A stretch of DNA of 64,000 nucleotides from Candidatus Multivorans sp. (GTDB taxonomy: Bacteria > Acidobacteriota > Thermoanaerobaculia > Multivoradales > Multivoraceae), in the NCBI GenBank assembly GCA_965247095.1, contig OZ251997.1:4160001-4224000 (forward strand). Reading direction: 5' to 3'. Positions 50,169 through 62,906 of this stretch are shown here, piece after piece. The notes beneath the pieces are model-generated. The model worked only from the letters and a program-made list of their open reading frames with translations, was not told the DNA's origin and made no database searches. Within the stretch, counting starts at the first letter, position 1. Each line of letters starts with the position of its first letter. Made by a program: the position numbers and the translations under genes.

Positions 50169-50181
50169 GTCCTGCAGCGAT

Positions 50182-50247
50182 GCCAGCAGGTCCCCCAACT
50201 GCTCCAGACTCGCCAAGTTGTGGACGGGCAGGAAGTCGTCGGTGTGG
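50182..50247 (-). repeat. Stranded duplicate of the VWA (coxE) 3' end; direct repeat of 54232-54297
   Basis: 61 of 66 nt identical; both copies encode HTDDFLPVHNLASLEQLGDLLA on the minus strand. Confidence 0.9.
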
Positions 50248-50319
50248 TAGCCTCTCGGTTTGGCTGTGAGCTTCGCGAGAACTTCTGAGACCGGCGCTGA
50301 ATTCCGCCAAAGACGACCG

Positions 50320-53300
50320 ATGGCGCAGTTGGCCATCCCAGGGACCTGGTCTCGGCCCGTGGCCCTGGCCGCTGCCCTCGTCGCGTTGACGCTGCCGGCT
50401 TCGGCGGTTCGGGCGCAGCGGCTTCTGACCTTGGACCCGGGCGTCGCCGCAGCGTCGTCGGCGGGTGTCCCCGGCCCGTCGATGGGGCCGGTGCCTGTGG
50501 CGGTGCAGGTCGATCTCGAGTTGCTGCGCGGGGGCCCGGCCTGGCTTGAGGTGCCAACACCGGACGGTAGCGTGCTGTCGGCGGAACGGAGCGTGTTCGA
50601 GGACCGGGGGCGCGGCGACCTGATGTGGTCCGGGGGGCAGCGCGGCGCCGGGTACGACACGGTGGTGCTGACGGTGGAAGGAGGACGTCTCGTGGGCCGG
50701 TTCGGCGCGGCGGGCGGCGGCGCATACGAGATCCACGCGGAGCGGAACGGCAGGGGCGGAATGACGCCGATCGGGGGTCCCCGGGCGGGCGGGGCCGCCG
50801 AGCCGTTCTGCGCAGTGGAGGCGGTCGCTCAGGGCGCCCGCAAGGCGGCTGCCCATGGCCGGTCAGGAGACATGGCGGCGGATTCTCCCTTGCGGGTGAG
50901 CGATCCGCAGAGCCACGAACGACTGGACATCCTTGTGGCGTACACGGCCACCGCGGCCGAGAACTGGGCCGACCGCGGCGGGGCCGTGGCGGCGGTCCGT
51001 TACGCCGGCGACTACCTGAAGATGGTGTTTCGGAACAACGAGCTCCCGGTCGAGCCGCACATCGTGCATGTCGCGCAGGCGTCGGCTGCTCTGGATCGGG
51101 CAGGGAGAGACCTGCCCTGGCGCGAGGGTCAGCGATACATTAGTCCTCTGTGGGTGCAGATCGACCGGGACGGGGAACTGTCAAGCCTGCGCCATGAGCA
51201 CCGGGCCGACATGGTGCATCTCTTCACGGGCGAGCGCGCGCCCCTGGTCGGCGCCTGCGGCTCGGCTTACTTGCTTGGCGAGGGCCGTACGGCAGAGAAC
51301 TTCTCCGGTTTCGCCTACGGCTGGACCACGAACAACCCGGTCGTGTGCCCCTCCGACTACGCCGTCATTTTCGCGCACGAGATCGGACACGGGCTGGGCG
51401 CCCACCACGATCCCTGGTACATCCCGAGTCGGAGGTCCCTTTATAGGCCGTACGCTGTCGGCTACGCGAACTTCGACGTCATGCCGAGCCTCGGCACGGC
51501 GATGAGCTATGAGGGCCAGGTCGAGCCGTTCTTTTCGACTCCCCGGATCCGGCCGTTCGGCGCGGTGGTCGGCGTGGCCGGCGAGCAGGACAACGAGGGG
51601 ACCTTGCGCGAGACGGTCCACCTCGGCGTGCGGTACAGCGACTACCTGATGTCGGTGGACGGCCTTCCGGCGGCGCCAGGCGATCTTCGGGTTCAGTTCG
51701 ACGACGGCGCCGCGCGCCTCTCCTGGCGGGACAACGCGCCGGACGCGGACGGCTACGAGGCGGCCTGGAGAGTGGAGGAAGATGTCGGCCACTGGAGCTC
51801 GTGGGAGCTTGTGGCGCTTGAAGGCCGCACCGAGGCGACCCTCCCTCTGGAGTTGACGGGCAGGCTGTACGAGTTCTGGGTCAGAGCGACGGAGGGCGAA
51901 GCGTTGTCTCTGCGCAGCGACATCGTTCCGCTGGTCGTCCCCGGCGAACCGCTTGCGGCGCCGTCGAACGTCTCCGTTACGGTCGACCCCGACCTCGGAG
52001 AGGTCAATGTCCGCTGGACCGACAACTCGGACGACGAAGAGGGGTTCGACGTGCAACTGCTCCAGGACGGCGAGCCGCTTCATCGGGTCCGGGCACAGTC
52101 GGACACGGGGACTGCTCGGTTCATCTGGTTCCACATGGAACTTCAGGTCGGCGCCCGATTCGCTGTGCGCGTGTTCGCCTACAACAGCTCGGGCTATTCC
52201 GAGAGTGGCGAGGCGTCCTTCCGGTGGGCGCACTCGCGGGCGGCGGAGCCGGTTGCCGATGTCGTCGCTTCGGCCGTCGGTCCGACGACGGTGCGGGTGG
52301 CCTGGACGGTCGACCCAGAGATCGACAACTACCGTGTTGACGCGTTTCTCCAAGGTTGGACCGATGCGCAGGTGTTCGCTTCGAAAGATTCCCTCGACGG
52401 CGCGGCTTGGCTGGACTTCGAGGGCCTCGCTCGCGGCGGCCGCTACAGGTTCAGGGTGTTGCCGATCTCCAGGCGGGACTCAAGCTCCGCCTACCTGACT
52501 CTGGGCGGGCGGGCCGCGGGCCCCGAGGCCCCTTCGGGCGTTTCCTGGGTGAAATTGGACGATGGGAATGTCCGTGTGAGCTGGAGGGACAACTCGAGCG
52601 ACGAACTGGGGTTCGCGGTCCAGGTCGGCAGAGTGGCGGGTTGGTGGAGGGTGGCCAGGGTCCCTCCAGACGCGGAATCGGCCATCGTGTATTCGCAGTA
52701 TTCGCCACCGGATGGCCGTTTGCTCCGCGTGTTTGCATACAACGAACGCGGATTCTCCCTGAGCAGTCCCCAACTGCACGGGCCCCCGCTCCTGTGTCAC
52801 GTCACGGCCACCGCCGGCGACGGGGAGGTCTGCGTGGGCTGGGCCGTGTGCATCCGCGAGGCGGTGACCGGGATGCAGGTGCGCTGGAAGGCCTCGGCGG
52901 AACTACCCTTCGATGACGCGGTCGACGCCTGGACGGACCTGCCGGCAACCCTAGTGGAGTACACCGCGACGGATCTTGACAACGGCACGGAGTACACCTT
53001 TGAAGTGCGGGCCGTGGCGCCGGGCGGCGCGGGCCGGGCGGAGACCGTCGACGCGACGCCCCGCGCCTCCCGGAAGCCTTCCTTCGAGCTTGACATTCGG
53101 TGCGACGACGAGCTGTGCCGCACGCTGACGGGTGCGCTGGTGTCGTTCGTGGATACGAGCAACGGCAACGTGACGGAGAGGCGCTGGGATTTCGGCGACG
53201 GCGCCGGGTCGGACCTGCGGTCTCCGACCCACGCGTGGTCTTCGCCCGGCTACTATGACGTCACGCTGACAGTAGGAGACGGTTCAAGTTCGGGCTCGAC

Positions 53301-54195
53301 GACGCGTACGGTGCTGGTGGAGGCGGCGGCGCCGGCCGGTTCCTGCCGGGCCGACGCGGAAACGCTCTGCCTGCGGGACTCGCGTTTCGAAGTGAAGATG
53401 GACTGGTGGACCGCCGCCGGCGAGTCGGGCGTCGGACGGGTGGTTCACGCGGCCACCAACGACTCGGGGCTGTTCCGGTTCTTCGAACCCGAGAACTGGG
53501 AGGTGCTGGTCAAGGTGCTGGACGGCTGCGAGATCAACCGAAGGACATGGGTGCTGGGTGCTTCGGCGACCGATCTGGGCTACCGGATCAGGGTCACCGA
53601 CACGGCTACCGGCGCCTCTCGGTCGTACGAGAACGAGCCCGGCCGAGTGGCGCCGGCGATCGTCGATACCGACGCGTTCCCCGGGGCCTGCGACGGCGTC
53701 GTGTCGGCCGGCGCCTCGGTCGTCGAAACCGCTGGAAGCCGAGTCTCCAGAGGCTTGACGAACGGCCCGGACGGCGCCGAGCCCGCGTTGGTGGCGGCGG
53801 AGCAGCTCACGGGATGGTGTTGGGATCGTGAGGACTTTCTGTGTCTGCATGACCGCCAATTCCTGGTGCAGGTCGCTGCGCATCCGGTGGGCGGAGGGCG
53901 TCACATCGGCCGGGTTGCGCGGGCGCGTACGGACGAGTCGGGCGTCTTCTACTTCTTCGACCCGGAGAACTGGGAGGTGCTGGCGAAGGTGGTGGACGGC
54001 TGTGCGATCAACGGGCACTACTGGGTGTTTGCTGCTTCGGCGACCGATATGGGGCTCCACTTCTCGGTGCAGAGTACGGATTGGGAGCAGGGGGACGTCG
54101 TTCTCAGGGGGTGGATCACCAAGCCGGGCGAGCCGGCGCCGGCGATCATCAACACGGAGGCCTTCGCGTGCGTTACTCTCGCGCCGCCGAACTGA
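50320..54195 (+). CDS. Secreted M12/reprolysin-like zinc metalloprotease with FN3 repeats, PKD and two C-terminal repeats
   Basis: Signal peptide; LDILVAYT, HEIGHGLGAHH, Met-turn TAMSY; W.DNS..E.GF FN3 repeats; WDFGDG..P.H PKD; two LCL..RF..NWEVL.KV.DGC domains. Confidence 0.85.
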   Translation: MAQLAIPGTWSRPVALAAALVALTLPASAVRAQRLLTLDPGVAAASSAGVPGPSMGPVPVAVQVDLELLRGGPAWLEVPTPDGSVLSAERSVFEDRGRGDLMWSGGQRGAGYDTVVLTVEGGRLVGRFGAAGGGAYEIHAERNGRGGMTPIGGPRAGGAAEPFCAVEAVAQGARKAAAHGRSGDMAADSPLRVSDPQSHERLDILVAYTATAAENWADRGGAVAAVRYAGDYLKMVFRNNELPVEPHIVHVAQASAALDRAGRDLPWREGQRYISPLWVQIDRDGELSSLRHEHRADMVHLFTGERAPLVGACGSAYLLGEGRTAENFSGFAYGWTTNNPVVCPSDYAVIFAHEIGHGLGAHHDPWYIPSRRSLYRPYAVGYANFDVMPSLGTAMSYEGQVEPFFSTPRIRPFGAVVGVAGEQDNEGTLRETVHLGVRYSDYLMSVDGLPAAPGDLRVQFDDGAARLSWRDNAPDADGYEAAWRVEEDVGHWSSWELVALEGRTEATLPLELTGRLYEFWVRATEGEALSLRSDIVPLVVPGEPLAAPSNVSVTVDPDLGEVNVRWTDNSDDEEGFDVQLLQDGEPLHRVRAQSDTGTARFIWFHMELQVGARFAVRVFAYNSSGYSESGEASFRWAHSRAAEPVADVVASAVGPTTVRVAWTVDPEIDNYRVDAFLQGWTDAQVFASKDSLDGAAWLDFEGLARGGRYRFRVLPISRRDSSSAYLTLGGRAAGPEAPSGVSWVKLDDGNVRVSWRDNSSDELGFAVQVGRVAGWWRVARVPPDAESAIVYSQYSPPDGRLLRVFAYNERGFSLSSPQLHGPPLLCHVTATAGDGEVCVGWAVCIREAVTGMQVRWKASAELPFDDAVDAWTDLPATLVEYTATDLDNGTEYTFEVRAVAPGGAGRAETVDATPRASRKPSFELDIRCDDELCRTLTGALVSFVDTSNGNVTERRWDFGDGAGSDLRSPTHAWSSPGYYDVTLTVGDGSSSGSTTRTVLVEAAAPAGSCRADAETLCLRDSRFEVKMDWWTAAGESGVGRVVHAATNDSGLFRFFEPENWEVLVKVLDGCEINRRTWVLGASATDLGYRIRVTDTATGASRSYENEPGRVAPAIVDTDAFPGACDGVVSAGASVVETAGSRVSRGLTNGPDGAEPALVAAEQLTGWCWDREDFLCLHDRQFLVQVAAHPVGGGRHIGRVARARTDESGVFYFFDPENWEVLAKVVDGCAINGHYWVFAASATDMGLHFSVQSTDWEQGDVVLRGWITKPGEPAPAIINTEAFACVTLAPPN

Positions 54196-54221: not shown

Positions 54222-55397
54222 CTAGATCGCAGCCAACAGGTCCCCCAACTGCTCCAGGCTCGCCAGGTTGTGCACTGGCAGGAAGTCGTCGGTGTGGGGG
54301 AGAGCGGCCACAATACCGCGGGTGAGGGGCTCGTAGCGGGGGGAGCCCAGCAGCGGATTGAGCCAGATGAGGCGGTGGCAGCTTCGGTGGAGGCGTTCCA
54401 TTTCCTTGCCGAGGAGGGCGATGTCGCCGCGGTCCCAGCCGTCGCTGATGATGAGGACTGCGGCGCCCTGGCCGAGGAGGCGTCGGCCCCAGACGAAGTT
54501 GAACTCGCGCAGGGCCTCGCCCGTGCGGGTGCCGCCGCCCCAGTCTTCGATGCGGTGGGCGGAGGCCTGGAGAGCGCGGTCGACGTCGCGTTCGGCGAGT
54601 TCGCGGGTGAGGCGCGTGAGGCGGGTGCCGAAGGCGAAGGCCTCGACTTTCGATACGCCCGGGTCGGCGGATCTCGGGTGGGAGACGGCGTAGATGAAGT
54701 GGAGCAGCAGCCGCGAGTAGGGCTCCATGGAGCCGGAGATGTCGCAGAGCAGCACCAGGGGCCGCCGCCGGTGCTTGCGGTCGCGGCCGACCAGGTCGAT
54801 CAGCTCGCCGCCGTGGGCGAGGTTGCGACGGAGCGTACGGCGCAGGTCGAGGCGGTGGCCGCCGGAGCTGGGCCGGAGCCGGCGGGTGCGGCGGGTCTCG
54901 AGCTGCCAGTGCATGGACGCCATCAACTGCTTGATCTCGTCGAGTTCGTCGCCTTCGAGCCCCGCGAAGTCCTTGCGCCGGAGCGCTTCGCGGGCGCTGT
55001 AGAGGGCCGTATGGGCGGTGCGGTCGCGGTCTTCCGAGCGGTCGCCGTCGCCGTCGTTCAGCGCCAGCTTCTGGATCGCCGACCGCTTCGTCCGCTCGGT
55101 GTGGCGCTGGATCATCAGACCCAGTTCGAGATGCTCGAGTTCGCGCGGGTCGCGGGCCTGCCAGAAGAGCTCGAATGCCTTCTCGAACCACGGCAGATCA
55201 CGTCGCCGGCTGACCAGGACGGCCCGTGCAGCCGCCTTCACGTCGCGCTTGCGGGCGATGTCGACGAGTTCGAGAGCCGCCACCCAGTCCCGGAGCTGGG
55301 TCGGCGTCACGTCCAGGCTGCCCACCCGCAGCAGGCGGCCGAAGAGGACGATGTTGCGCAGCAGGTGGCCGGTGGCCGGCGCTGCCGTTTCAGTCAT
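54222..55397 (-). CDS. coxE: CoxE-like VWA domain protein
   Basis: F.RLLR, LDLRRTLR, LCDISGSM..YS, F.FGTRLT, W.GGTR.G, IISDGWD, WLNPL. Confidence 0.9.
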   Translation of the reverse strand: MTETAAPATGHLLRNIVLFGRLLRVGSLDVTPTQLRDWVAALELVDIARKRDVKAAARAVLVSRRRDLPWFEKAFELFWQARDPRELEHLELGLMIQRHTERTKRSAIQKLALNDGDGDRSEDRDRTAHTALYSAREALRRKDFAGLEGDELDEIKQLMASMHWQLETRRTRRLRPSSGGHRLDLRRTLRRNLAHGGELIDLVGRDRKHRRRPLVLLCDISGSMEPYSRLLLHFIYAVSHPRSADPGVSKVEAFAFGTRLTRLTRELAERDVDRALQASAHRIEDWGGGTRTGEALREFNFVWGRRLLGQGAAVLIISDGWDRGDIALLGKEMERLHRSCHRLIWLNPLLGSPRYEPLTRGIVAALPHTDDFLPVHNLASLEQLGDLLAAI

Positions 55398-55601
55398 CGA
55401 TCCAGCGGGGCGGGACTCATGGAGCGCTTCGTCTTCAGCCATTTCCGGGATTCCCGCAAGATCGTTTCCCCGCGGCATTCCCTGCTGGCAGTGAACTCGC
55501 GGACCGGGACCGGCCAGAGGATAGCGAGGCCGTAGACTCCTGCCATCTCCGTGGATGGCTGTTGGCGACGAATGGTCGTGCCGTGAACGAGGAAGAGCCC
55601 C

Positions 55602-56966
55602 ATGAGAATGTTCATCGCGTTCGTTGCGCTGGTGCTGGCTGCCGTGCCCGCAGCAGCCGAGGATCTCTACAACAAGGACGGCGTGCAGCTCTGGACCTCG
55701 GCGCGTCTTGTGACCCGCGATGCGGCGACCTGCCATGTGCTGGAGGACCGATACCCGGACGAGGAGTACCAGCGCTTGAAGGCGAACGAGGGGCAGTCGC
55801 TGCACGTGTGGCGGATGGACCTGACCGCGGCGAACTACTCGGGCAAGGTGATCGAGTACCTGCGCGGCAGCGTGGACGTTGAATCGGAGTGGCCGCCATG
55901 CACCAACTGGGACTGGGACGTGTTGCAGGACTACCCGGGAGGTGTGGACTGGGCGGGTGGCATCCTGAGCTTTCAGCAGGTGACCGACATGCAGCCCGGT
56001 GAGGAGGCGGGCGAGACCATGTTCCTCCTGGCGTTCCATGACCAGGAGCCGGGGTTCGGCCGCTGGAGCATCGACTACAACTTCTCCGAGGCCGCGCCGG
56101 CTTCAGCCGACCGCGGCGTTCCGAGCGGGCGCGCGCCCGGAGCCGGCACACCCAGCGACCGGCAGTCGGCGGCGCCCGGCCGCGCCGCCGACCCGCCTCT
56201 CGCGGCCCGCCCGTCTAGGCAGGCGGGCGATGTGTTCCGGGACACGCTTCGTTCGGGCGGCACGGGCCCGGAGATGGTGGTGATACCGGCGGGGAGTTTT
56301 CGTATGGGCTGCGTGTCGGGTGTGGGCTGCTTTGACGACGAGCATCCGGTCCACCAGGTGACGATTCCTCAGGCGTTGGCGGTCGTGAAGTACGAGGTGA
56401 CGTTCGCGGAGTGGGACGCCTGCGTGTCGGGTGGCGGTTGCAGTCATCGTCCCGATGACGCGTGGGGCCGCGGGCGGCACCCAGTGATGCGCGTGTCGTG
56501 GGATGACGCCCAGGAGTATGTGCGTTGGCTGTCGTCGCAGACGGGTGCTGAGTATCGTTTGCTGAGCGAGTCGGAGTGGGAGTACGCGGCTCGTGCCGGG
56601 TCGAGCACGGCGTACAGTTGGGGGAACGAGATCGGTTCGGGTCGCGCGAACTGCAATGGTTGCGGCAGCCAGTGGGACGGTTCGCAGACGGTGCCGGTGG
56701 GTTCGTTTTCGCCGAACGGGTGGGGCCTCCACGACATGCATGGCAACGTGTGGGAGTGGGTGCAGGACTGCTGGAACGGAAGCTACAGCGTCGCGCCGTC
56801 GAACGGCGGCGCTTGGCAGCAGGGTCATTGCTCCCGTCGCGTTTTGCGCGGTGGTTCCTGGGGCGACGATCCGTGGGACCTCCGCTCCGCGTACCGCTTC
56901 AGGAACGCCTCCGGCTACCGCTACGACTTCCTCGGTTTTCGTGTAGCCCGGACGCTCACCCCTTGA
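55602..56966 (+). CDS. DGR target: secreted protein with unknown N-terminal domain, Pro/Ala linker and FGE-sulfatase/CLec domain
   Basis: Signal peptide; PEMVVIPAGSF.MG, YEVTF..W, PV..VSW.DA, RL.SE.EWEYAARAG, GL.DMHGNVWEW, RVLRGGSW...GFRVARTL; 3' end matches the TR. Confidence 0.93.
   Translation: MRMFIAFVALVLAAVPAAAEDLYNKDGVQLWTSARLVTRDAATCHVLEDRYPDEEYQRLKANEGQSLHVWRMDLTAANYSGKVIEYLRGSVDVESEWPPCTNWDWDVLQDYPGGVDWAGGILSFQQVTDMQPGEEAGETMFLLAFHDQEPGFGRWSIDYNFSEAAPASADRGVPSGRAPGAGTPSDRQSAAPGRAADPPLAARPSRQAGDVFRDTLRSGGTGPEMVVIPAGSFRMGCVSGVGCFDDEHPVHQVTIPQALAVVKYEVTFAEWDACVSGGGCSHRPDDAWGRGRHPVMRVSWDDAQEYVRWLSSQTGAEYRLLSESEWEYAARAGSSTAYSWGNEIGSGRANCNGCGSQWDGSQTVPVGSFSPNGWGLHDMHGNVWEWVQDCWNGSYSVAPSNGGAWQQGHCSRRVLRGGSWGDDPWDLRSAYRFRNASGYRYDFLGFRVARTLTP
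56833..56958 (+). repeat. DGR variable repeat (VR) with IMH end
   Basis: 126-nt ungapped match to 58262-58387; 21 of 22 mismatches lie opposite TR adenines. Confidence 0.96.
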
Positions 56967-56998
56967 GTCTTTACCTCTTTACCTCTTTGTGGGGGGTT

Positions 56999-57022
56999 CC
57001 AAGGGGGGCTTGCCCCCCTTGG
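56999..57022 (+). promoter_or_regulatory. GC-rich hairpin/cruciform downstream of the VR (DGR target-recognition element)
   Basis: CCAAGGGGGG-CTTG-CCCCCCTTGG, a perfect 10-bp stem about 30 nt after the target stop, preceded by TCTTTACC repeats. Confidence 0.8.
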
Positions 57023-57062
57023 TCCGTCGCGTAGGCTGCGTTGCCAACCTGAGAGCCCCTTC

Positions 57063-57473
57063 TTGACGCCGCACGAGGAACAACCCGAAGGTGGTATTGC
57101 GCCCGCCCACCGCGCCCGCACGACGGGCGCTGCGCTGGAGTCCCACTACCGGTTCATCCTCTGGCTGGTTCCGGCGGTGGAGCGTTTCCCCCGCAGCCGC
57201 AAGTTCCTGCTCGGCGACCGCATCCAGAACACCGCCCTCGATGTACTGGAGCGCCTCATCGAGGCGACCTACACCCGCCGCCGGTCCGGTCACTTGGCCG
57301 TCGCCAACCTGGGCCTGGAGAAGCTTCGCTTCCTGTTCCGCTTGGCCTGGGACCTGCGCGTCCTGGATCGCCGGCGCTACGAGTACGCCGCCCGGTGTAT
57401 CGACGAGACGGGGCGCAAGGTCGGCGCCTGGCGCAAGGTGCATAGTGCCCGCGAGAGCGCGCAATCTGTTTGA
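57063..57473 (+). CDS. avd: DGR accessory variability determinant (bAvd-like four-helix bundle)
   Basis: WL.P.VE.FPRS.KF.LGDRIQ..ALD.LE..IEA.Y...LEKLRFL.RLA.DL...Y.....IDE.GR.VG.W.K; lies between VR and RT. Confidence 0.92.
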   Translation: MTPHEEQPEGGIAPAHRARTTGAALESHYRFILWLVPAVERFPRSRKFLLGDRIQNTALDVLERLIEATYTRRRSGHLAVANLGLEKLRFLFRLAWDLRVLDRRRYEYAARCIDETGRKVGAWRKVHSARESAQSV

Positions 57474-58375
57474 CCGCATCGCCTCCTTCGAGGCGCTGCA
57501 CGCGGCCGCGCTGCGCGCCGCGCGGGCGAAGCGTGGGAAGCCCGGTGTGGCGGCCTTCCTCGCCAACCTGGAAACCGAGGTGCTGCGTCTCGAACGGGAG
57601 CTCAAGAGCGGCCTCTACTGCCCGGGGCGCTACACGAAGATCGAGATTCACGACCCGAAGCACCGCATCGTGTCCGCGGCCCCCTTCCGCGACCGGGTGG
57701 TCCACCACGCCTTCTGCGCCGTGTGCGAGCCGATCTTCGAGCGCGGCTTCATTCACGACAGCTACGCGAACCGCGTCGGCAAGGGCACCCACCGGGCGGT
57801 CGCCCGCTACGAGAAGTTCCGCGACCGGTCCCGGTACGTCCTGCGCTGCGACATCTTCCGCTACTTCCACACGATCGACCACGAGATCCTGAAGCGCGAC
57901 CTGCGCCGCCGGCTGGCCTGCGAGCGCACCCTGGACCTGGCGGACCGGATCATCGACGGGTCGAACCCGCAGGAGCCGGTCTACCAGCATTTCCCAGGCG
58001 ACGTCGGAACCAACGAAGTTCCTGGGCTTCGTGCTGCTGCCCGGCGGCCGTCGGCGCTTGCCCGAGGACAACGTCCGACGATTCCGCAACCGGCTCCGCG
58101 GCCTGCGCGACCGCTGGCGGCACGGGACGGTGGCCGAAGACGAAGTGCGCCGACGAGTCCAGTCCTGGATTGCCCACGCCGAGCACGCGGACACCTGGCG
58201 TCTGCGTCAAACGATCTTCCGCGACGGGTGGTTCGACCCGGCGCGGGGGCCTGGCTCTCCCCCCGACGCGTTTTGCGCGGTGGTTCCTGGAACAACAAAC
58301 CGAGGAACCTCCGCTCCGCGAACCGCAACAGGAACACCACCGACAACCGCAACAACAACAACGGTTTTCGTGTAG
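57445..58375 (+). pseudogene. DGR reverse transcriptase with internal deletion and frameshift (no GNxxSQ or YxDD motif)
   Basis: N-part: DPKHR.VSAAPFRDRVVHHA, FIHDSYA.R.GKGTH.A, LRCDI.RYF.TIDH..L, ending FPGD at about 58003. C-part in another frame: SEPTKFLGF...RRFRNRL...SWIAHA.HADT. The middle motifs are absent. Confidence 0.88.
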
Positions 58376-58387
58376 CCCGCACGCTCA
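58262..58387 (+). repeat. DGR template repeat (TR)
   Basis: AAC-rich copy of the VR (11 AAC codons in the VR frame). Confidence 0.96.
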
Positions 58388-58533
58388 ATAGCCGGAGTCG
58401 GCGCCGTCACGGCAGCGCCGGGAGCGCAGTGAGCGTCCAGGGAGGGTCATGATGAGACCCGGTTGCCGCCCCTCTTGCCCCGGTTGCGGGGGAGGGGCGG
58501 CTGCCAAGTGGCCCGGGAGGCCGCTTCACTTGC

Positions 58534-58562
58534 TTGCATCGCCTGCCGGGCGAAGGTAGATT
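58534..58562 (+). promoter_or_regulatory. Sigma70-like promoter upstream of the NYN leader
   Basis: TTGCAT-17 nt-TAGATT. Confidence 0.55.
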
Positions 58563-58597
58563 GCGCGTAGATACCCGCCGGCAGCGTGCTGTCGGCT

Positions 58598-58631
58598 CAA
58601 GGGCTGCTCTTCGGGGCAGCCCTTGCTTTTT
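58598..58631 (+). terminator. Intrinsic terminator-like hairpin just upstream of the NYN gene
   Basis: CAAGGGCTGCTC-TTCG-GGGCAGCCCTTG followed by CTTTTT. Confidence 0.7.
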
Positions 58632-58640
58632 GGGGACAGT

Positions 58641-59411
58641 ATGAGGACGAGGGTCTACATTGACGGCTTGAACCTGTACTACGGAGCCCTCAAGGGAACG
58701 CCGTTCAAGTGGCTCGACCCCATCAAGCTGAGCATGGCCCTGCTTCCCCCGACGTGTGTCGTGGACAAGGTGCTCTACTTCACCGCCCATGTGTCCGGCG
58801 TCCAAGACCCCGGCGCTCCGGCTCGTCAGCGGGTCTATCTGAACGCGCTTCGCACGCTGCCGCAGGTCGAGGTGCACTTCGGCAGCTTTCTCGCCAAGAC
58901 GCTCTGGCGGCCGCTCGTGAACCTGCCGGTGGCCGGCAGGCGAATCGCTGCACCCAAACCGGTCATGTTGCCAGCGGGCGACCACGCCGTCTCCGGTCCG
59001 AGCCCGCAGACACTGCCCGTGGGTGGCTACCCGGCACGCGGGGCTGGAAAGAAGAAGCGGCCGAAGGCTTCGGCGCCGTTGCCGGATGCGTTGGTTGCCG
59101 AGTTCCACTCCATGGAGGAGAAGGGATCAGACGTCAACCTCGCCTCCCATCTTCTCAACGACGCTTGGAAGGGGCTATTCGACGCAGCAGCCGTGATCTC
59201 CAACGACACCGATCTCGTGACACCGATCCGGATCGTCACCGCTGAACGAGGCAAACCGGTGTTCATCGTGTGTCCGGGCCGGTGGCAGGTCGCGCCGAAG
59301 CTCGGCCAGGCGGCGAGCCACGTACGACATGTTCGTAGGGCGATGCTCAAGGCGGCGCAGTTTCCCAGCACGCTTCCGGGCACCGCAATCACCAAGCCGG
59401 CAGGTTGGTGA
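58641..59411 (+). CDS. NYN domain (PIN-like) nuclease
   Basis: VYIDGLNLYYG, YFTA.V, RQ..YL.AL, EEKGSDVNLA.HL..D, VISND.DL. Confidence 0.9.
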   Translation: MRTRVYIDGLNLYYGALKGTPFKWLDPIKLSMALLPPTCVVDKVLYFTAHVSGVQDPGAPARQRVYLNALRTLPQVEVHFGSFLAKTLWRPLVNLPVAGRRIAAPKPVMLPAGDHAVSGPSPQTLPVGGYPARGAGKKKRPKASAPLPDALVAEFHSMEEKGSDVNLASHLLNDAWKGLFDAAAVISNDTDLVTPIRIVTAERGKPVFIVCPGRWQVAPKLGQAASHVRHVRRAMLKAAQFPSTLPGTAITKPAGW

Positions 59412-59484
59412 ACAGCGGGGTCGGTCGCTTGGTAGTGCCTTCACCACTCGGCCAGATGCACGCGTGAGTGCGAGCGGACGGAAC

Positions 59485-59715
59485 TCAGGACGTTCCCTCC
59501 CATAGCGCCAGTTCGGCCTCCTCCGTCGTTTCATCGAAGTCAGGCAGCGAGTTGACCAGATGGGCCAGCCTGCCGAAGCGGAACTTCTCCGGCCTGACGG
59601 GAACCAGCCTGACCGCGGGCTTGCCCCTGCGGGCGATGATCACGTCGTCGCCGGCTTCGGCGGCGACGATGAGCTTCGACAGTTGCGACTTGGCGTCGTG
59701 GATGTTGACGAGCAT
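59485..59715 (-). CDS. Phd/YefM family antitoxin (no co-directional toxin)
   Basis: VNIHDAKSQLSKLI..AEAG..V.IARRGKP.VRLVP. Confidence 0.9.
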   Translation of the reverse strand: MLVNIHDAKSQLSKLIVAAEAGDDVIIARRGKPAVRLVPVRPEKFRFGRLAHLVNSLPDFDETTEEAELALWEGTS

Positions 59716-59725
59716 CTTGGGCTCC

Positions 59726-61963
59726 TCAGCCTATCTGGCTCGTCTGGCTCTGGTCGGAGGATCCATCGGGCGTCTCCTGCGCGGGAACAGGACGTGCGTA
59801 CTTTGAGTATGTGATGGCCTGAGGGCTTTGTCGCAGGACGTGCTTGACTAGGAAGAACCGGTACGAGCGGTAGGCATACACGGTCGTCGCAACGGCGGCG
59901 AACAAGGCTAGCTGGTTCACCCAGATGGCAGGCAGGGCCAGCGTGGGGAACAGGTGCTGAGGGGCGTGAAGTGCCAGCATGACTCCGATCAGAAGCCAAC
60001 CCGCGACGAGCAGCATCGCCTCGGCCTTGAGGCGGCCGTCGTCAACGGCCGCCGTCCGGTATGCGGCCGGAAGACGGCGACGCACCAACAGGGCCACCGC
60101 TACGAATACCGCTCCGATCAGAGCCAAGCGGCCAGGCCAACCCGCCGCGACGACTGAGGATAGGGAGGACCAATCTGGCATGTGGTCTGCTAGTTCGCTG
60201 CTGAGTCCTTTGAACGTGGCGGTACTTTGAGCCGCCCAGATGGCGGGAACAGCAACAACTAGGGCGCCGAACGCCGCTGCTGCCCGGTTTCGGATCGTGC
60301 GGTCGTCGTCACCGCGTGGGCCAGCGTCCGAGAAGGACTCGCACTTCTGCCGCTGTACCTGCCTCCACCAGATGCTGAGGTCGATGAGACGCCGCCCGAA
60401 GTAGCCTAGGAAGGAGAAGACCACCGCGGCCGTGGCCGCGGTCCGCCATCCTTCAGCTTGGAGCGCCAGCGAGAGCGAGCTGTAGGTTCCGAGCAGCACC
60501 AGCAGGGGCACGAAACTATAGAGCCAGAACAGCAGCTTCCAGTACACACGGCGACGGAACCATTGCGGTCGCTCCGAGACGGATTCCTTCTTGCCGTCCA
60601 CGGCCCGATCGAGAATTCGTCGGAACAGACACTGATCCGCCCAGTACTTGCTGTGTGCAACTCCGGGGACGGAGTAGCGGTTGAAGACGACATCCTCCCT
60701 GCACCGGAATACAGCGTTGTAGCCGCACGTCCGTTGCACCACATCGAGCCTGTGCCCGACCGGGTCCAGCTCGTCGCAGTAGTTGAAGTGATCTATCTTC
60801 CGTGGCTTGTGCGACTTGAAGCGACCACTCAGGCTGCCGAAGGCGCTGATGAGGTTGCTAGTCAGCAGGTACCGGTAGTTCGTCCACCAGATCGTCAGGT
60901 ATTTGTCGATGGGGGAGCCCAACGTTACAAAGCTCTGCACACGGTTGATCCAGCGTGTGTCGGGCAAGGTGAAGTTGCAGCCGCCACGGGCGTACCCTGG
61001 GAACTTCCAACTGCGCTTGTGGCCGAGCCGGACGCTCCAGCTTGCGCTGGCGTAGAGCAGCGCATCGAGGCTCATGATGCTGCCCAGGCTGTGAGCGATG
61101 AAGACGTAGCGCGGGTCACGGATCTTGCCCTTCCGCTTGCGCTCCTCTGTGTAGTGCGCGGCTTCGACCCTCGCCATCAGCTCGTGGAAACGGCGAACTG
61201 CCCGACGGCGGCAGCGGCTGTACTCACCGTACAGTTGGACATCTCCGAGGAACTTCACGAAGACGAGTTCCTTCATCTCCTTGAAGCGGAAGTTCATGGC
61301 GAAGCGCACCATGAGCAGAGTGTCGGCGAGGAGGTACAGGATGCGGCGGATCCAGAGCGGTACTTTGGCGTCCTCGGCGGCTTGGATTTCCTTCTGGAAC
61401 TTGGCCCTCTCGGCGGCGTTCTCGGTAGCTTGGCTTTCCTTCTGGGTCCTGGCCCTCTCGGCGGCGGTCTCGGCAGCTTCGTGCTTGCGCAGCAGGCGCC
61501 CCAGCAGACCCTTGGCCCACAGGTCGACGTCTTGTCCGACGTGCTCTACTGAGTCCTGCGTCACGTCGGACCAGCAGAGGTCCACGAACCGCAGGTTCTG
61601 CCCGCAGGTCGCCGGCTCTCCCAGGAACGGCTGATCGGGAGGAGAATCTGGCGAGGCAGGAATGCCGTCGAACTCCATCCAGGGCTGTTCAGTGACCGGG
61701 ACCTTCGACGGCCCCGTCTGCCCACTGGCTCGCCCGAGGGTGAGAACATCCCGCTTGTCGTCCTTCTTGGCGCCACGTCGTGCTTCGGCAAAGCGGTTGA
61801 CGACGTTGATCGCACACTCGTTCTTGCGCTGCTCCCCTATGCCGTGAACCACGACAACGTAGGTCACGGAGTCGGCCGGCGATTCAGCGCGCTTCTCGCC
61901 CATGGACTTACTCATGATGCCGGGTCCGCTGGAAGGGATGTCCGCCGCCGCCGCTTCAGTCAC
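59726..61963 (-). CDS. Hypothetical membrane protein with an alpha/beta-hydrolase-like N-terminal domain
   Basis: VVVVHGIGEQ, IAHSLGS, FVTLGSP, D..DPV, H..YW motifs; several C-terminal TM helices; GTG start overlaps the stop of the AAA+ gene. Confidence 0.7.
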   Translation of the reverse strand: MTEAAAADIPSSGPGIMSKSMGEKRAESPADSVTYVVVVHGIGEQRKNECAINVVNRFAEARRGAKKDDKRDVLTLGRASGQTGPSKVPVTEQPWMEFDGIPASPDSPPDQPFLGEPATCGQNLRFVDLCWSDVTQDSVEHVGQDVDLWAKGLLGRLLRKHEAAETAAERARTQKESQATENAAERAKFQKEIQAAEDAKVPLWIRRILYLLADTLLMVRFAMNFRFKEMKELVFVKFLGDVQLYGEYSRCRRRAVRRFHELMARVEAAHYTEERKRKGKIRDPRYVFIAHSLGSIMSLDALLYASASWSVRLGHKRSWKFPGYARGGCNFTLPDTRWINRVQSFVTLGSPIDKYLTIWWTNYRYLLTSNLISAFGSLSGRFKSHKPRKIDHFNYCDELDPVGHRLDVVQRTCGYNAVFRCREDVVFNRYSVPGVAHSKYWADQCLFRRILDRAVDGKKESVSERPQWFRRRVYWKLLFWLYSFVPLLVLLGTYSSLSLALQAEGWRTAATAAVVFSFLGYFGRRLIDLSIWWRQVQRQKCESFSDAGPRGDDDRTIRNRAAAAFGALVVAVPAIWAAQSTATFKGLSSELADHMPDWSSLSSVVAAGWPGRLALIGAVFVAVALLVRRRLPAAYRTAAVDDGRLKAEAMLLVAGWLLIGVMLALHAPQHLFPTLALPAIWVNQLALFAAVATTVYAYRSYRFFLVKHVLRQSPQAITYSKYARPVPAQETPDGSSDQSQTSQIG
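61381..61476 (-). repeat. Two imperfect 48-bp tandem repeats in coding sequence
   Basis: Encode AAETAAERARTQKESQ and ATENAAERAKFQKEIQ. Confidence 0.8.
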
Positions 61964-62906
61964 CTGTGGACTGGCTCTTCCGGAGCAGCCGGCGGACCGC
62001 CTCGTCGTCGATCTTGTCGAGGTCGTCCTGGTACTTGAGGAGCACGCCCAGGGTGTCGCGGAGGATGCCGTCGGAGAGCGTTTCCTGGTCGAGGGCGATC
62101 AGGGCGTTCGTCCAGTCCAGGGTCTCGGCGACGCCGGGTTGCTTGAACAGGTCCTCCTCGCGCAGCGCCTGCACCAGGCGGACGATCTCGGCGGCGAAGT
62201 GCTTGGGCGCTTCGGGCACGCGCCGGAGCACGATCTGCACTTCCTTCTCGTAGTCGGGAAAGTCGATCCAGTGGTAGAGGCAGCGGCGCTTGAGCGCGTC
62301 GTGGACCTCGCGGGTGCGGTTCGAGGTCACCACCGCAACCGGCGGCGTTTCGGCGGCGATGGTGCCGATCTCGGGAATCGTGATCTGGAAGTCGGCCAGG
62401 ATCTCGAGCAGGTAGGCCTCGAACTCCTCGTCGGCCCGGTCGAGTTCGTCGATCAGAAGGACCGGCGGGGCCTCGCCTCTGCGGCCGGAACGGACCGCGC
62501 GCAGCAGGGGCCGCTCGAGCAGGAATTCGGAGGAGAACACGTCGTCGACGGCGGCCCGGCCGTCGCCTCCTCCGGCTGCCTCCACGCCGCGCAGGTGGAG
62601 CAACTGCCGGCGGTAGTTCCACTCGTAGACGGCGGTCGAAACGTCGAGCCCCTCGTAGCACTGGAGCCGGATCAGCTCGGAGCCCAGGCAGCGCGAGAGG
62701 GCCTTGGCGACCTCCGTCTTGCCGACGCCGGGTTCGCCCTCCAGGAAGATCGGCTTGCCCATGCGCAGCGACAGGTAGATCGCGGTGGCGAGGCTGCGGT
62801 CGGCGATGTAGTCCTCGGCGCGCAGGGCAGAGACGACGGCGTCGACGTCCGGGAAGCCGCGGTGGGTGGGGGGGTCGGGGCGCTGGAAACCAGGCGAAAC
62901 CGTCAT
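61956..62906 (-). CDS. coxD: MoxR-family (CoxD-like) AAA+ ATPase
   Basis: LEGEPGVGKT, RLQCYEGLD, LLIDELDRADEEFEA, TSNRTRE.HDALKRRC, PGVAETLDW. Confidence 0.9.
   Translation of the reverse strand: MTVSPGFQRPDPPTHRGFPDVDAVVSALRAEDYIADRSLATAIYLSLRMGKPIFLEGEPGVGKTEVAKALSRCLGSELIRLQCYEGLDVSTAVYEWNYRRQLLHLRGVEAAGGGDGRAAVDDVFSSEFLLERPLLRAVRSGRRGEAPPVLLIDELDRADEEFEAYLLEILADFQITIPEIGTIAAETPPVAVVTSNRTREVHDALKRRCLYHWIDFPDYEKEVQIVLRRVPEAPKHFAAEIVRLVQALREEDLFKQPGVAETLDWTNALIALDQETLSDGILRDTLGVLLKYQDDLDKIDDEAVRRLLRKSQSTGD

What the first reader, a model, noticed from the sequence alone, without database searches (positions are those of the whole stretch)
55602..58500. Complete DGR cassette (target/VR - hairpin - avd - RT - TR) diversifying a secreted CLec-fold protein
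Seen: VR 56833-56958 and TR 58262-58387 align without gaps over 126 nt with 22 mismatches. 21 are at TR adenines (for example AAC to GGC/GAC/TAC/TTC/CTC, AGG to TGG, ACC to GCC/TCC). The single non-A difference (CGC/CGG) lies at the 3' end, where IMH and IMH* normally differ. A GC hairpin follows the VR, and avd and RT are adjacent. Established: this is the signature of adenine-specific mutagenic retrohoming. Inference: the element is chromosomal, not phage-borne, and diversifies an exported ligand-binding surface.
Basis: partly seen in the sequence, partly recalled or inferred. Interest (0 to 1): 0.85.

Follow-up and report, generated by a model that had tools for sequence, protein, structure and literature searches.

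The report
Recently broken chromosomal diversity-generating retroelement
This is a real diversity-generating retroelement, a system that rewrites the binding tip of a secreted protein, but a deletion has destroyed its reverse transcriptase, so it is an ordinary, recently silenced member of a well-known family.

Summary
VR 56833-56958 and TR 58262-58387 align without gaps over 126 nt with 22 mismatches, 21 of them at TR adenines (binomial P = 1.8e-11).

The anatomy is that of a DGR:
- a secreted FGE/C-type-lectin target
- a GC hairpin after the VR
- bAvd
- a DGR-clade RT
- a TR followed by a structured spacer RNA, supported by covariation in 30 of 38 pairs

"Complete" is wrong. Against three intact same-genus relatives the RT lacks 263 nt. 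This removes LPIGNLTSQ and the catalytic YVDD and shifts the frame. Contigs from two public runs bridge the junction. The 4.6-Mb single-contig genome has no other RT and no second current VR. The VR is therefore most likely frozen. The break looks recent, because target, avd, TR and RNA helices are intact and VR and TR show no non-adenine drift.

The element is chromosomal, sitting between a MoxR ATPase gene and a VWA gene. The same site in other genus members ranges from intact DGR to empty.

Verdict: new member of a known kind, modest interest. This scan already reported broken-RT DGRs in two other genomes.

The parts
55602..56966 (+). Target gene, 454 aa. It has an N-terminal signal-like sequence (residues 1-19), an N-terminal domain of unknown fold (about residues 20-170), a Pro/Ala/Gly-rich linker, and an FGE-sulfatase (C-type-lectin-fold) domain at residues 222-450 (56265-56951).
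   Evidence: Pfam PF03781, E 3.7e-60. PDB sequence matches to PvdO 5hha (E 1.7e-50), FGE structures, and Treponema TvpA 2y3c (E 5.7e-11). Full length against relatives L060 and L068. The signal peptide was judged by eye from the translation, with no predictor. The N-terminal domain has no Pfam hit and no atlas lead (best score 0.84).
56833..56958 (+). Variable repeat (VR), the last 126 nt of the target's coding region before codons 453-454 and the stop.
56951..56951 (+). The single non-adenine VR/TR difference. The VR has a purine (G); the TR (58380) has a pyrimidine (C).
   Evidence: Conserved in every VR/TR pair of the genus. Across the lineage, 57 of 58 VR-type ends carry a purine and 56 of 56 TR-type ends carry a pyrimidine.
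56999..57022 (+). GC hairpin after the VR: 10-bp stem and CTTG loop. It is the likely target-recognition hairpin.
   Evidence: Fold. 31 of 51 VR-type ends in the window and 66 related loci have a perfect hairpin of 7 bp or more within 90 nt, with stem variants that keep pairing (CCAAGGGGGG, CCAGGGGGC, CCGGGGGG). The role is inferred from Guo et al. 2011 (PMC3240598), seen only as a search listing and abstract start.
57063..57473 (+). avd accessory gene, 136 aa, apparently intact.
   Evidence: bAvd PF22296, E 5.7e-17. Aligns over residues 1-136 to relatives at 80-86% identity.
57445..58003 (+). RT 5' fragment (fingers, and palm up to the first catalytic region). The probable GTG start at 57445 overlaps the end of avd.
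   Evidence: RVT_1 profile positions 7-106 of 205 only, 24.6 bits, under the 29.6 cut-off. Matches 8ub7 residues 8-168. 91-96% identical to same-genus RTs. The start codon was read.
57992..58004 (+). Deletion junction. 263 nt present in intact relatives are missing here, and the frame shifts.
   Evidence: Alignments (the gap is 263 nt against L011, L012 and L013). The junction is bridged without differences by contigs of runs X1 (57199-58341) and X2 (57841-58204).
58004..58375 (+). RT 3' fragment (end of palm and thumb) in another frame. As in intact relatives, this frame runs on through the TR to a TAG inside it.
   Evidence: relative's residues 256-390, 87% identity. Collinear but non-significant match to 8ub7 residues 259-315 (E 0.83).
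58253..58261 (+). Upstream strand of a long-range helix (P0) that abuts the first TR base. It pairs with 58440-58448 and corresponds to the BPP-1 'cPRT Stop' duplex.
   Evidence: In 8 of the 9 P0 pairs some sequences changed both bases and kept pairing; 96.3% of cells paired across 46 sequences. The functional analogy comes from Handa et al. preprint section 7.
58262..58387 (+). Template repeat (TR), 34 adenines, lying inside the 3' end of the RT reading frame.
   Evidence: TRs are nearly identical across species while VRs differ at A sites.
58381..58436 (+). P1 is the TR 3' end ACGCTC (58381-58386) paired with spacer GAGCGT (58431-58436), the template:primer-type duplex. It encloses P2, a stem-loop (58391-58427, core 58398-58421) that corresponds to the Avd-binding stem-loop.
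   Evidence: P1: 98.2% of cells paired, 1 pair with compensatory change. P2 core: 9 of 10 pairs with compensatory change. Analogy from the preprint, sections 6 and 8.
58437..58455 (+). Junction and conserved single strand. C58437 lies opposite TR Y58380 as a pyrimidine-pyrimidine mismatch. C58438 and A58439 are invariant. 58440-58448 is the P0 strand. CATGATGA (58448-58455) is invariant or nearly so.
   Evidence: CC 33, UC 10, CU 3 of 46; G58379:C58438 in 46 of 46; A58439 in 46 of 46. Invariant columns listed.
58466..58500 (+). P3, the terminal stem-loop with an internal loop. It corresponds to the RT-binding stem-loop, and conservation of the cassette ends here.
   Evidence: 11 of 11 pairs with compensatory change. 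Similarity to related loci stops at about 58455-58511.

Best explanation
This is a chromosomal diversity-generating retroelement of the common FGE/C-type-lectin, Avd-dependent kind. It has lost its reverse transcriptase function through a 263-nt internal deletion.

How it worked while the RT was whole (inferred by homology with the Bordetella phage element):
1. An RNA spanning the RT 3' end, the TR and the spacer folded into four helices.
2. The Avd pentamer and the RT bound the two stem-loops.
3. The TR:spacer duplex set the start of cDNA synthesis at or just 5' of G58379.
4. The RT copied the TR with random misincorporation opposite adenines, and stopped at the helix that abuts the first TR base.
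5. The cDNA replaced the VR, guided by the VR-side end sequence and the downstream GC hairpin.
6. This rewrote up to about 20 codons at the C-terminal binding face of a secreted protein.

In this genome the RT gene lacks motif 4 (LPIGNLTSQ), the catalytic YVDD and motif 6, and is frameshifted. No other RT is encoded. No new cDNA can be made, and the VR is a frozen record of the last homing events. Target, avd, TR and all RNA helices are intact, and the VR differs from the TR only at adenines plus the one fixed end position. The break is therefore evolutionarily recent.

Shown here: the anatomy, the adenine bias, the deletion, the absence of another RT, the RNA covariation and the synteny. Inferred: the mechanism, export of the target, and loss of activity.
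For: - VR/TR: 21 of 22 mismatches at TR adenines, P = 1.8e-11.
- Families: FGE-sulfatase E 3.7e-60 and bAvd E 5.7e-17.
- The remaining RT half matches the solved DGR RT 8ub7 best, E 9.7e-24.
- Intact relatives at 91-94% identity carry LPIGNLTSQ at residue 191 and YVDD at residue 225 of a 390-aa RT. The window lacks exactly 263 nt spanning both.
- RVT_1 matches only profile positions 7-106 of 205, below the cut-off.
- Junction confirmed by contigs of runs X1 and X2 with 0 differences.
- Own genome (one 4,617,209-bp contig, 98.96% complete): 1 RVT_1 match at E<=1, this one. An intact relative's RT finds only residues 1-179 and 256-390 at this locus. Two weak hits elsewhere are DDE transposase genes.
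- RNA: 94.6% of 1730 cells paired; in 30 of 38 pairs some sequences changed both bases and kept pairing; 0 of 500 shuffles reached this; slid controls gave 36.7-49.2%. The layout matches, element for element, the BPP-1 RNA described in preprint 10.1101/2023.10.23.563531 (abstract and sections 6, 7, 8, 10 read).
- Target and avd are full length.
- Non-adenine VR/TR mismatches: only the fixed position here, against 14 of 34 mismatches in species G032, whose RT carries a different deletion.
Against: - The laid runs are stored as contigs, not reads. Only 32 of about 1580 pieces were listed, so a minority allele with an intact RT in the same population cannot be excluded.
- Runs X1 and X2 are one sample and may be the assembly's own source, so they do not test the junction independently of the sample.
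- Loss of activity is inferred from the missing motifs, not measured.
- The 'recent' estimate rests on zero drift over only 92 non-adenine positions, which is weak dating.
- The signal peptide was judged by eye.
- The absence of another RT rests on Pfam RVT_1 and one DGR RT query in six frames. A very divergent RT could be missed.
Confidence: 0.85

Rival explanations
1. The cassette is intact and active in the living population. The deletion would be an assembly artefact or a variant carried by the assembled consensus only, with intact-RT cells of the same strain still diversifying the VR.
For: Only contigs could be laid, and contigs drop rare variants. Run X8 (another study) holds a close relative (7 and 16 differences on the two flanks) with 256 extra letters at the junction, so near relatives with the segment exist in nature. 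Run X2 also holds a roughly 86%-identical form that runs on past 58003.
Against: Two runs give contigs that cross the junction with 0 differences, at depths (12.2 and 31.2) like the rest of the locus. The forms with the segment differ from the window at many other positions, so they are other strains or species. Different RT deletions occur at the same locus in species G032 and G036, so decay is the norm in this genus.
Confidence: 0.08
2. The DGR is served in trans by another reverse transcriptase, so the VR is still being rewritten despite the broken cis RT.
For: In other genomes one DGR RT can serve several targets, including remote ones (Wu et al. 2018, passages read). The TR, spacer RNA and avd are all intact here.
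Against: No other RVT_1 match at E<=1 in six frames of the complete genome. No other match to an intact DGR RT except two DDE transposase genes. DGR RTs bind their own spacer RNA specifically (preprint section 8).
Confidence: 0.03
3. The two 126-nt repeats are an ordinary duplicated domain fragment, unrelated to retrohoming, and the adenine bias is chance or compositional.
For: The genome holds another FGE-type paralogue with a similar C-terminal end at 3,338,231.
Against: P = 1.8e-11 for the adenine bias. The second copy lies in the RT frame, not in a lectin gene. avd, a DGR-clade RT and a covarying spacer RNA are adjacent. The paralogue shows what ordinary divergence looks like: 44 mismatches, only 22 at A.
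Confidence: 0.01

Closest known systems
Bordetella phage BPP-1 DGR (mtd-avd-TR-brt), including its RT-Avd-RNA particle (PDB 8ub7 series; Handa et al. preprint 10.1101/2023.10.23.563531)
   Same: - Adenine-specific VR/TR differences.
- Avd accessory protein.
- The RT N-terminal half is the best PDB match (E 9.7e-24).
- GC hairpin after the VR.
- The spacer RNA has the same order of elements: stem-loop, primer strand pairing with the TR 3' end, a 3-nt linker (2 nt in BPP-1), a strand pairing with sequence just upstream of the TR, a conserved single strand, then a long terminal stem-loop.
   Different: - Chromosomal, not phage-borne.
- Gene order is target-avd-RT-TR-spacer, so the helix partner upstream of the TR lies in the RT 3' coding region instead of avd.
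- The TR lies inside the RT reading frame.
- The target is FGE-type rather than Mtd.
- Donor and recipient ends differ at one position only. From recall, five positions differ in BPP-1.
- The RT here is broken.
Treponema denticola TvpA-type DGRs: Wu et al. 2018 category 'b', a CLec1 VR within an FGE-sulfatase domain (PMC5758913, passages read)
   Same: The VR is at the C-terminus of an FGE-sulfatase-fold protein. This is the largest target class (71 of 372 DGRs in that survey), and some members carry N-terminal extensions of unknown function. TvpA (2y3c) matches residues 317-449 at E 5.7e-11.
   Different: The closest solved relative of the domain is PvdO (E 1.7e-50), not TvpA. The N-terminal domain is specific to this genus. 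There is one target only, and the RT is inactivated.
DGRs with truncated RT genes, and DGRs whose TR overlaps the RT 3' end (DiGReF survey group 3; Schillinger et al. 2012, PMC3521204, passages read)
   Same: That survey reports RT genes cut by transposon insertion, nonsense or frameshift mutation while the VR still shows adenine exchanges ('very recent inactivations'). It also defines a class in which the TR overlaps the end of the RT ORF. Both apply here.
   Different: Here the lesion is an internal 263-nt deletion, confirmed against intact relatives at the same chromosomal site and set within a series of further decay stages in the genus.

Membership tests
Diversity-generating retroelement (DGR) | A TR/VR repeat pair whose differences fall almost only at TR adenines | tested here: met
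   21 of 22 mismatches at A over 126 nt, P = 1.8e-11.
Diversity-generating retroelement (DGR) | An RT of the DGR clade with motif 4 (the SQ dipeptide context) and catalytic YxDD | tested here: not met
   Membership by descent is clear: the best PDB match is the DGR RT 8ub7, and the fragment is 91-96% identical to relatives that carry LPIGNLTSQ and YVDD. In the window itself both motifs are deleted and the frame is shifted. It is therefore a DGR by descent and anatomy, but not a functional one.
Diversity-generating retroelement (DGR) | The VR lies at the C-terminus of a target ORF with a C-type-lectin-type fold | tested here: met
   FGE-sulfatase domain at residues 222-450, VR at codons 411-453. 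The fold is inferred from sequence matches to solved structures; no model was built.
Diversity-generating retroelement (DGR) | End sequences that distinguish recipient (IMH) from donor (IMH*), and a GC hairpin after the VR | tested here: met
   One fixed purine/pyrimidine difference at 56951/58380. Hairpin at 56999-57022. Function not tested.
Diversity-generating retroelement (DGR) | Accessory protein Avd | tested here: met
   PF22296, E 5.7e-17, full length.
Diversity-generating retroelement (DGR) | Structured RNA flanking the TR (template:primer duplex, stop duplex, Avd-binding and RT-binding stem-loops) | tested here: met
   38 pairs, 94.6% of cells paired, in 30 pairs some sequences changed both bases and kept pairing, 0 of 500 shuffles as high.
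Diversity-generating retroelement (DGR) | Ongoing diversification (VR polymorphism at A sites within a population) | not testable with these tools
   The runs that hold the locus are kept as contigs only.
Prophage-borne DGR | Phage structural or replication genes around the cassette, or close similarity to phage DGRs | tested here: not met
   The neighbours scanned against Pfam are metabolic, transport and protease genes. The locus is syntenic between MoxR and VWA genes in several species. 128 phage records match the RT, all below 60% identity, best 40.3%.

The most novel reading that the evidence does not exclude
In this DGR lineage (46 aligned elements from metagenome-assembled genomes (MAGs) labelled as more than ten phyla), donor and recipient are told apart by a single position. 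It is a pyrimidine in every TR and a purine in nearly every VR. In the folded RNA it is a conserved pyrimidine-pyrimidine mismatch at the foot of the template:primer duplex, next to an invariant G:C pair and an invariant A. This position may both fix where cDNA synthesis starts and keep the TR from becoming a recipient.

The genus around the window would also offer a natural erosion series of one ancestral chromosomal DGR: intact, RT-deleted, target plus avd, target only with a VR frozen and conserved across species, TR stump, and empty. Such a series would show what happens to a hypervariable protein after its diversifier dies.
Probability: 0.3. Interest if true: 0.5.

Novelty: new member of a known kind. 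Interest (0 to 1): 0.3.

Why it matters
For annotation, a clean adenine-mismatch signature does not show that a DGR is active. Here the signature is perfect and the enzyme is dead.

For DGR biology, the locus and its relatives give three things:
- A covariation-supported RNA model for the target-avd-RT-TR gene order. It matches the cryo-EM architecture of the phage prototype, which supports the claim that the priming and stop mechanism is general.
- A simple, testable candidate for the donor/recipient determinant: one purine/pyrimidine position.
- Related species in which the same target gene is still diversified, recently frozen, or long frozen and conserved. These allow selection on a once-hypervariable binding site to be compared.

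None of this changes what is known about how DGRs work.

Tried and rejected
The one run search found 23 runs, all stored as contigs. Laying X1, X2, X5 and X8 shows presence and junctions, but cannot show within-strain variation at A sites. Many 'joints' in that output have short sides and come from other organisms' FGE genes or from VR/TR similarity, so I did not use them.
- **Remote VRs.** The TR finds only the cis VR and one 41-nt match at genome position 3,338,231. That match is an FGE-type paralogue with 44 mismatches over 126 nt, 22 of them not at A, and an apparent frame change. It is not a current target.
- **Rfam.** Nothing but a sub-threshold chance hit (BjrC68, 17.1 bits against 39) in 55000-60000.
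- **RT 3' fragment against the PDB.** Not significant alone (E 0.83).
- **N-terminal domain of the target.** No Pfam family and no usable atlas lead (best 0.84, in the range that shuffled proteins reach). No structure was predicted.
- **An RNAalifold proposal.** Two pairs (58376-58377 with 58441-58442) were dropped in favour of the long-range helix P0, which uses the same 3' bases and has far stronger covariation.
- **Two weak RT-like hits in the genome (E 0.004).** Both are DDE transposase genes.
- **Literature.**
  - 'Candidatus Multivorans': 0 papers.
  - DGR + sponge + symbiont: 7 papers, none on this lineage by title or abstract.
  - DGR + reverse transcriptase + pseudogene + inactive: 8 papers, of which only the DiGReF survey was opened.
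  - Supplementary tables of the Handa preprint (its list of 278 DGRs with predicted RNA elements) are closed. Those of Wu et al. were not opened. They may already list this lineage.
Full report
**Observation.** The region was read directly. Positions 56833-56958 and 58262-58387 align without gaps over 126 nt with 22 mismatches. 21 lie where the downstream copy has A, and one is C (58380) against G (56951). The downstream copy has 34 A among 126 bases, so 21 or more of 22 falling on A has probability 1.8e-11. Similarity ends at both borders. In the upstream ORF's frame the changed adenines are first and second bases of AAC, AAA, AGG, ACC and GAC codons. They alter 15 residues between 421 and 444; a sixteenth changed codon, 412, is silent.

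**Parts.**
- The upstream ORF (55602-56966, 454 aa) has an FGE-sulfatase domain at residues 222-450 (E 3.7e-60). It matches solved FGE-fold proteins: PvdO 5hha (E 1.7e-50), formylglycine-generating enzymes, and Treponema TvpA 2y3c (E 5.7e-11).
- Its first 19 residues look like a Sec signal peptide. This was judged by eye.
- Residues 20-170 match nothing.
- A 10-bp GC hairpin with a CTTG loop lies at 56999-57022. Among VR-type ends in the window and 66 related loci, 31 of 51 have a perfect hairpin of 7 bp or more within 90 nt, with stem variants that preserve pairing.
- avd (57063-57473) is a bAvd family member (E 5.7e-17) and is full length against relatives.

**The reverse transcriptase is broken.**
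- The frame that starts at about 57445 matches Pfam RVT_1 only over profile positions 7-106 of 205, at 24.6 bits against a cut-off of 29.6.
- It matches the solved Bordetella phage DGR RT (8ub7) over residues 8-168 (E 9.7e-24). That is ahead of a group II intron RT (9.1e-11) and retron-type RTs (4.6e-6).
- The rest of the RT continues from about 58004 in another frame.
- A search of 61 related genomes found RTs 91-96% identical in seven same-genus genomes.
- In three of these loci (L011, L012, L013) the RT is an uninterrupted 390 aa, with LPIGNLTSQ at residue 191 and YVDD at residue 225.
- Against each of the three, the window lacks exactly 263 nt. The junction can be placed anywhere in 57992-58004 because of short shared bases.
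- The deletion removes motif 4, the catalytic aspartates of motif 5, and motif 6, and it shifts the frame.

**Is the deletion real, and is there a substitute RT?**
- Contigs from public runs X1 (57199-58341) and X2 (57841-58204) cross the junction with no difference. The two runs are one sample and may be the assembly's source. They test the assembly step, not the sample.
- A run from another study (X8) holds a close relative with 256 extra letters at the junction.
- The genome is a single contig of 4,617,209 bp, 98.96% complete.
- RVT_1 has one match in six frames at E<=1, and it is this locus.
- An intact relative's RT finds only residues 1-179 and 256-390 here. Two weak hits elsewhere are DDE transposase genes.
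- The TR finds no second current VR. The only other match is an FGE-type paralogue at 3,338,231 with 44 mismatches, half of them not at A.

**The RNA.** Downstream of the TR, related loci stay similar up to about 58455-58511 and then diverge.
- An alignment of 47 sequences gave an RNAalifold structure in which 22 of 31 pairs show compensatory changes.
- I extended the alignment upstream of the TR (46 sequences) and added a long-range helix seen by eye.
- The final 38-pair structure has 94.6% of 1730 cells paired. In 30 pairs some sequences changed both bases and kept pairing. None of 500 column shuffles reached any of the five measures, and slid controls gave 36.7-49.2% pairing.

The elements are:
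- P0: 58253-58261 with 58440-58448. In 8 of 9 pairs some sequences changed both bases and kept pairing. It abuts the first TR base.
- P1: the TR 3' end 58381-58386 with 58431-58436.
- P2: a stem-loop at 58391-58427.
- A near-invariant CATGATGA at 58448-58455.
- P3: a stem-loop at 58466-58500.

This order matches, element for element, the Bordetella phage DGR RNA in its cryo-EM particle: an Avd-binding stem-loop, a TR:spacer template:primer duplex, a stop duplex with sequence upstream of the TR, a single-stranded 'thumb ring', and an RT-binding stem-loop. I read the abstract and sections 6, 7, 8 and 10 of preprint 10.1101/2023.10.23.563531. That preprint also states that 207 of 278 Avd-type DGRs have such predicted elements. 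The RNA is therefore expected biology, confirmed here for a gene order in which the RT, not avd, lies upstream of the TR. Rfam 15 has no matching family.

**The one non-adenine difference.** TR position 58380 is C or T in 56 of 56 TR-type ends. The VR counterpart is G or A in 57 of 58 VR-type ends. In the fold, 58380 faces 58437 as a pyrimidine-pyrimidine mismatch in 46 of 46 sequences, next to an invariant G58379:C58438 pair and an invariant A58439. By spacing analogy with the phage RNA, where two nucleotides separate the primer strand from the stop-duplex strand, cDNA synthesis would start at or just 5' of G58379. That would explain why this difference is never erased by homing. This is inference, not shown.

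**Genomic setting.** The cassette lies in a 6.5-kb segment between a VWA/CoxE gene (54222 to about 55400, minus strand) and a MoxR-type AAA ATPase gene (61956-62906, minus strand). Metabolic, transport and protease genes surround it, and the neighbours scanned against Pfam gave no phage-type family. Cassette G+C is 67.5% against 68.1% for the window. The best phage RT is 40.3% identical.

Record titles of same-genus relatives name the genus Candidatus Multivorans (Thermoanaerobaculia). The MoxR gene is present in 42 of 42 genus genomes. I examined the site in 29 of the 41 relatives, which was the tool's locus limit:

| State of the MoxR/VWA site | Relatives |
|---|---|
| VWA abuts MoxR (empty) | 12 |
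| Only the FGE-type target gene | 7 |
| Only the TR 3' part plus spacer | 1 (G024) |
| Target and avd, no RT found | 1 (G016) |
| DGR with RT sequence | 6 |
| Other content, not resolved | 2 |

Among RT-bearing loci, G032 and G036 carry deletions at other breakpoints. The RT of G025 stops at residue 222.

A maximum-likelihood tree of the 1.7-kb MoxR-symporter flank places the window in a supported clade of 8 (100/99), all with a DGR or a remnant. This is a single locus with a midpoint root, not a species tree. The window's nearest neighbours are G026 (intact) and G016 (RT lost).

The window shows no non-adenine drift between VR and TR. G032 shows 14 non-adenine mismatches of 34. Four target-only species (G006, G020, G021, G028) share almost the same VR, whereas species with a DGR differ at many A sites. 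This is the pattern expected when a VR freezes and is then inherited.

**Wider relatives.** The module from the start of the FGE domain to the end of P3 occurs at 65-84% nucleotide identity in other lineages (up to 91% in same-genus relatives), with RT identity of 63-83% over most of its length. These MAGs, many of them single-chromosome assemblies, are labelled Dehalococcoidia, Binatia, Latescibacterota, Spirochaetia, Nitrospirales, Bryobacterales, Longimicrobiales, Thermodesulfobacteriota, and several Alpha-, Beta- and Gammaproteobacteria. This suggests horizontal spread. Wu et al. 2018 already document horizontal transfer for DGRs in general (passages read). I did not analyse it further.

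**Comparison with what is known.**
- FGE-type CLec targets are the largest DGR target class (71 of 372), and most DGRs are chromosomal (Wu et al. 2018).
- The DiGReF survey describes TRs overlapping the RT 3' end as its group 3. It also describes RT genes truncated by mutation while the VR still shows adenine exchanges (Schillinger et al. 2012, passages read).
- This scan reported broken-RT DGRs in two other genomes before (e1-4003995, e1-1204598). I did not test those.

The window's element is therefore a new, degenerate member of a known kind.

**Verdict.** Confidence in the 'recently inactivated DGR with a frozen VR' reading is 0.85. The main open point is whether cells of the same strain with an intact RT exist, which only raw reads or PCR can settle.

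Noticed in passing
window 50260-54195 (+): This is a 1311-aa ORF with reprolysin-like M12 metallopeptidase, fibronectin type III and PKD domains. Four syntenic relatives lack it: window 50172-50247 there abuts 54218 (L023, L024, L028, L029). It looks like a gene insertion of about 3.9 kb specific to this genome.
   Followed up: partly
window 58623-61963: The rest of the segment between the DGR and MoxR holds three ORFs: a weak NYN-domain ORF (58623-59411, 22.7 bits, under the cut-off); a Phd/YefM-type antitoxin ORF (59485-59715, minus strand, E 1.9e-9) with no room for a partner toxin gene downstream; and a 745-aa ORF (59726-61963, minus strand) with no Pfam family. Their presence varies among relatives.
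   Followed up: no
own genome G000:C1 about 3,337,300-3,338,400 (locus L003): A second FGE-sulfatase-type gene has a C-terminal end that resembles the VR, including a VR-type purine at the end position. It has 44 mismatches to the TR, 22 of them not at A, and its reading frame appears to change within the domain. It may be an old, decayed target or a plain paralogue.
   Followed up: partly
loci L060-L125 (search for related loci): The same DGR module (FGE domain, avd, RT, TR, spacer RNA) occurs at 65-84% nucleotide identity in MAGs labelled as more than ten phyla, many of them single-chromosome assemblies. Several carry 2-5 FGE-type targets (for example L072 and L064). This points to cross-phylum horizontal spread of one DGR lineage.
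   Followed up: partly
loci L041, L042, L044, L050 (species G021, G028, G006, G020): These orphan target genes at the MoxR/VWA site have no avd, RT or TR. Their VRs are almost identical to one another (a few differences over 126 nt). Against the genus TR they still differ at 16 adenine positions and 9-10 others (no RT found in these genomes with the query). They look like frozen VRs inherited through speciation.
   Followed up: partly
locus L039 (species G024): A stump made of the last 95 nt of the TR, 100% identical to the window's TR, plus the spacer RNA lies directly beside the VWA gene. Target, avd and RT are all gone.
   Followed up: no
species G026 (loci L022, L023): This nearest relative (flank 99% identical) has two DGR copies in its genome. 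The copy at the MoxR/VWA site has two target genes. Its cassette is only 80-88% identical to the window's, although the MoxR flank is 98.7% identical. The cassette may therefore have been exchanged or may evolve much faster than its flanks.
   Followed up: no
own genome G000:C1:3179734-3180117 and 3386389-3386772: Two identical-scoring copies of a 473-aa ORF carry a weak DDE transposase domain (E 0.0023). This is probably an insertion sequence present at least twice.
   Followed up: partly
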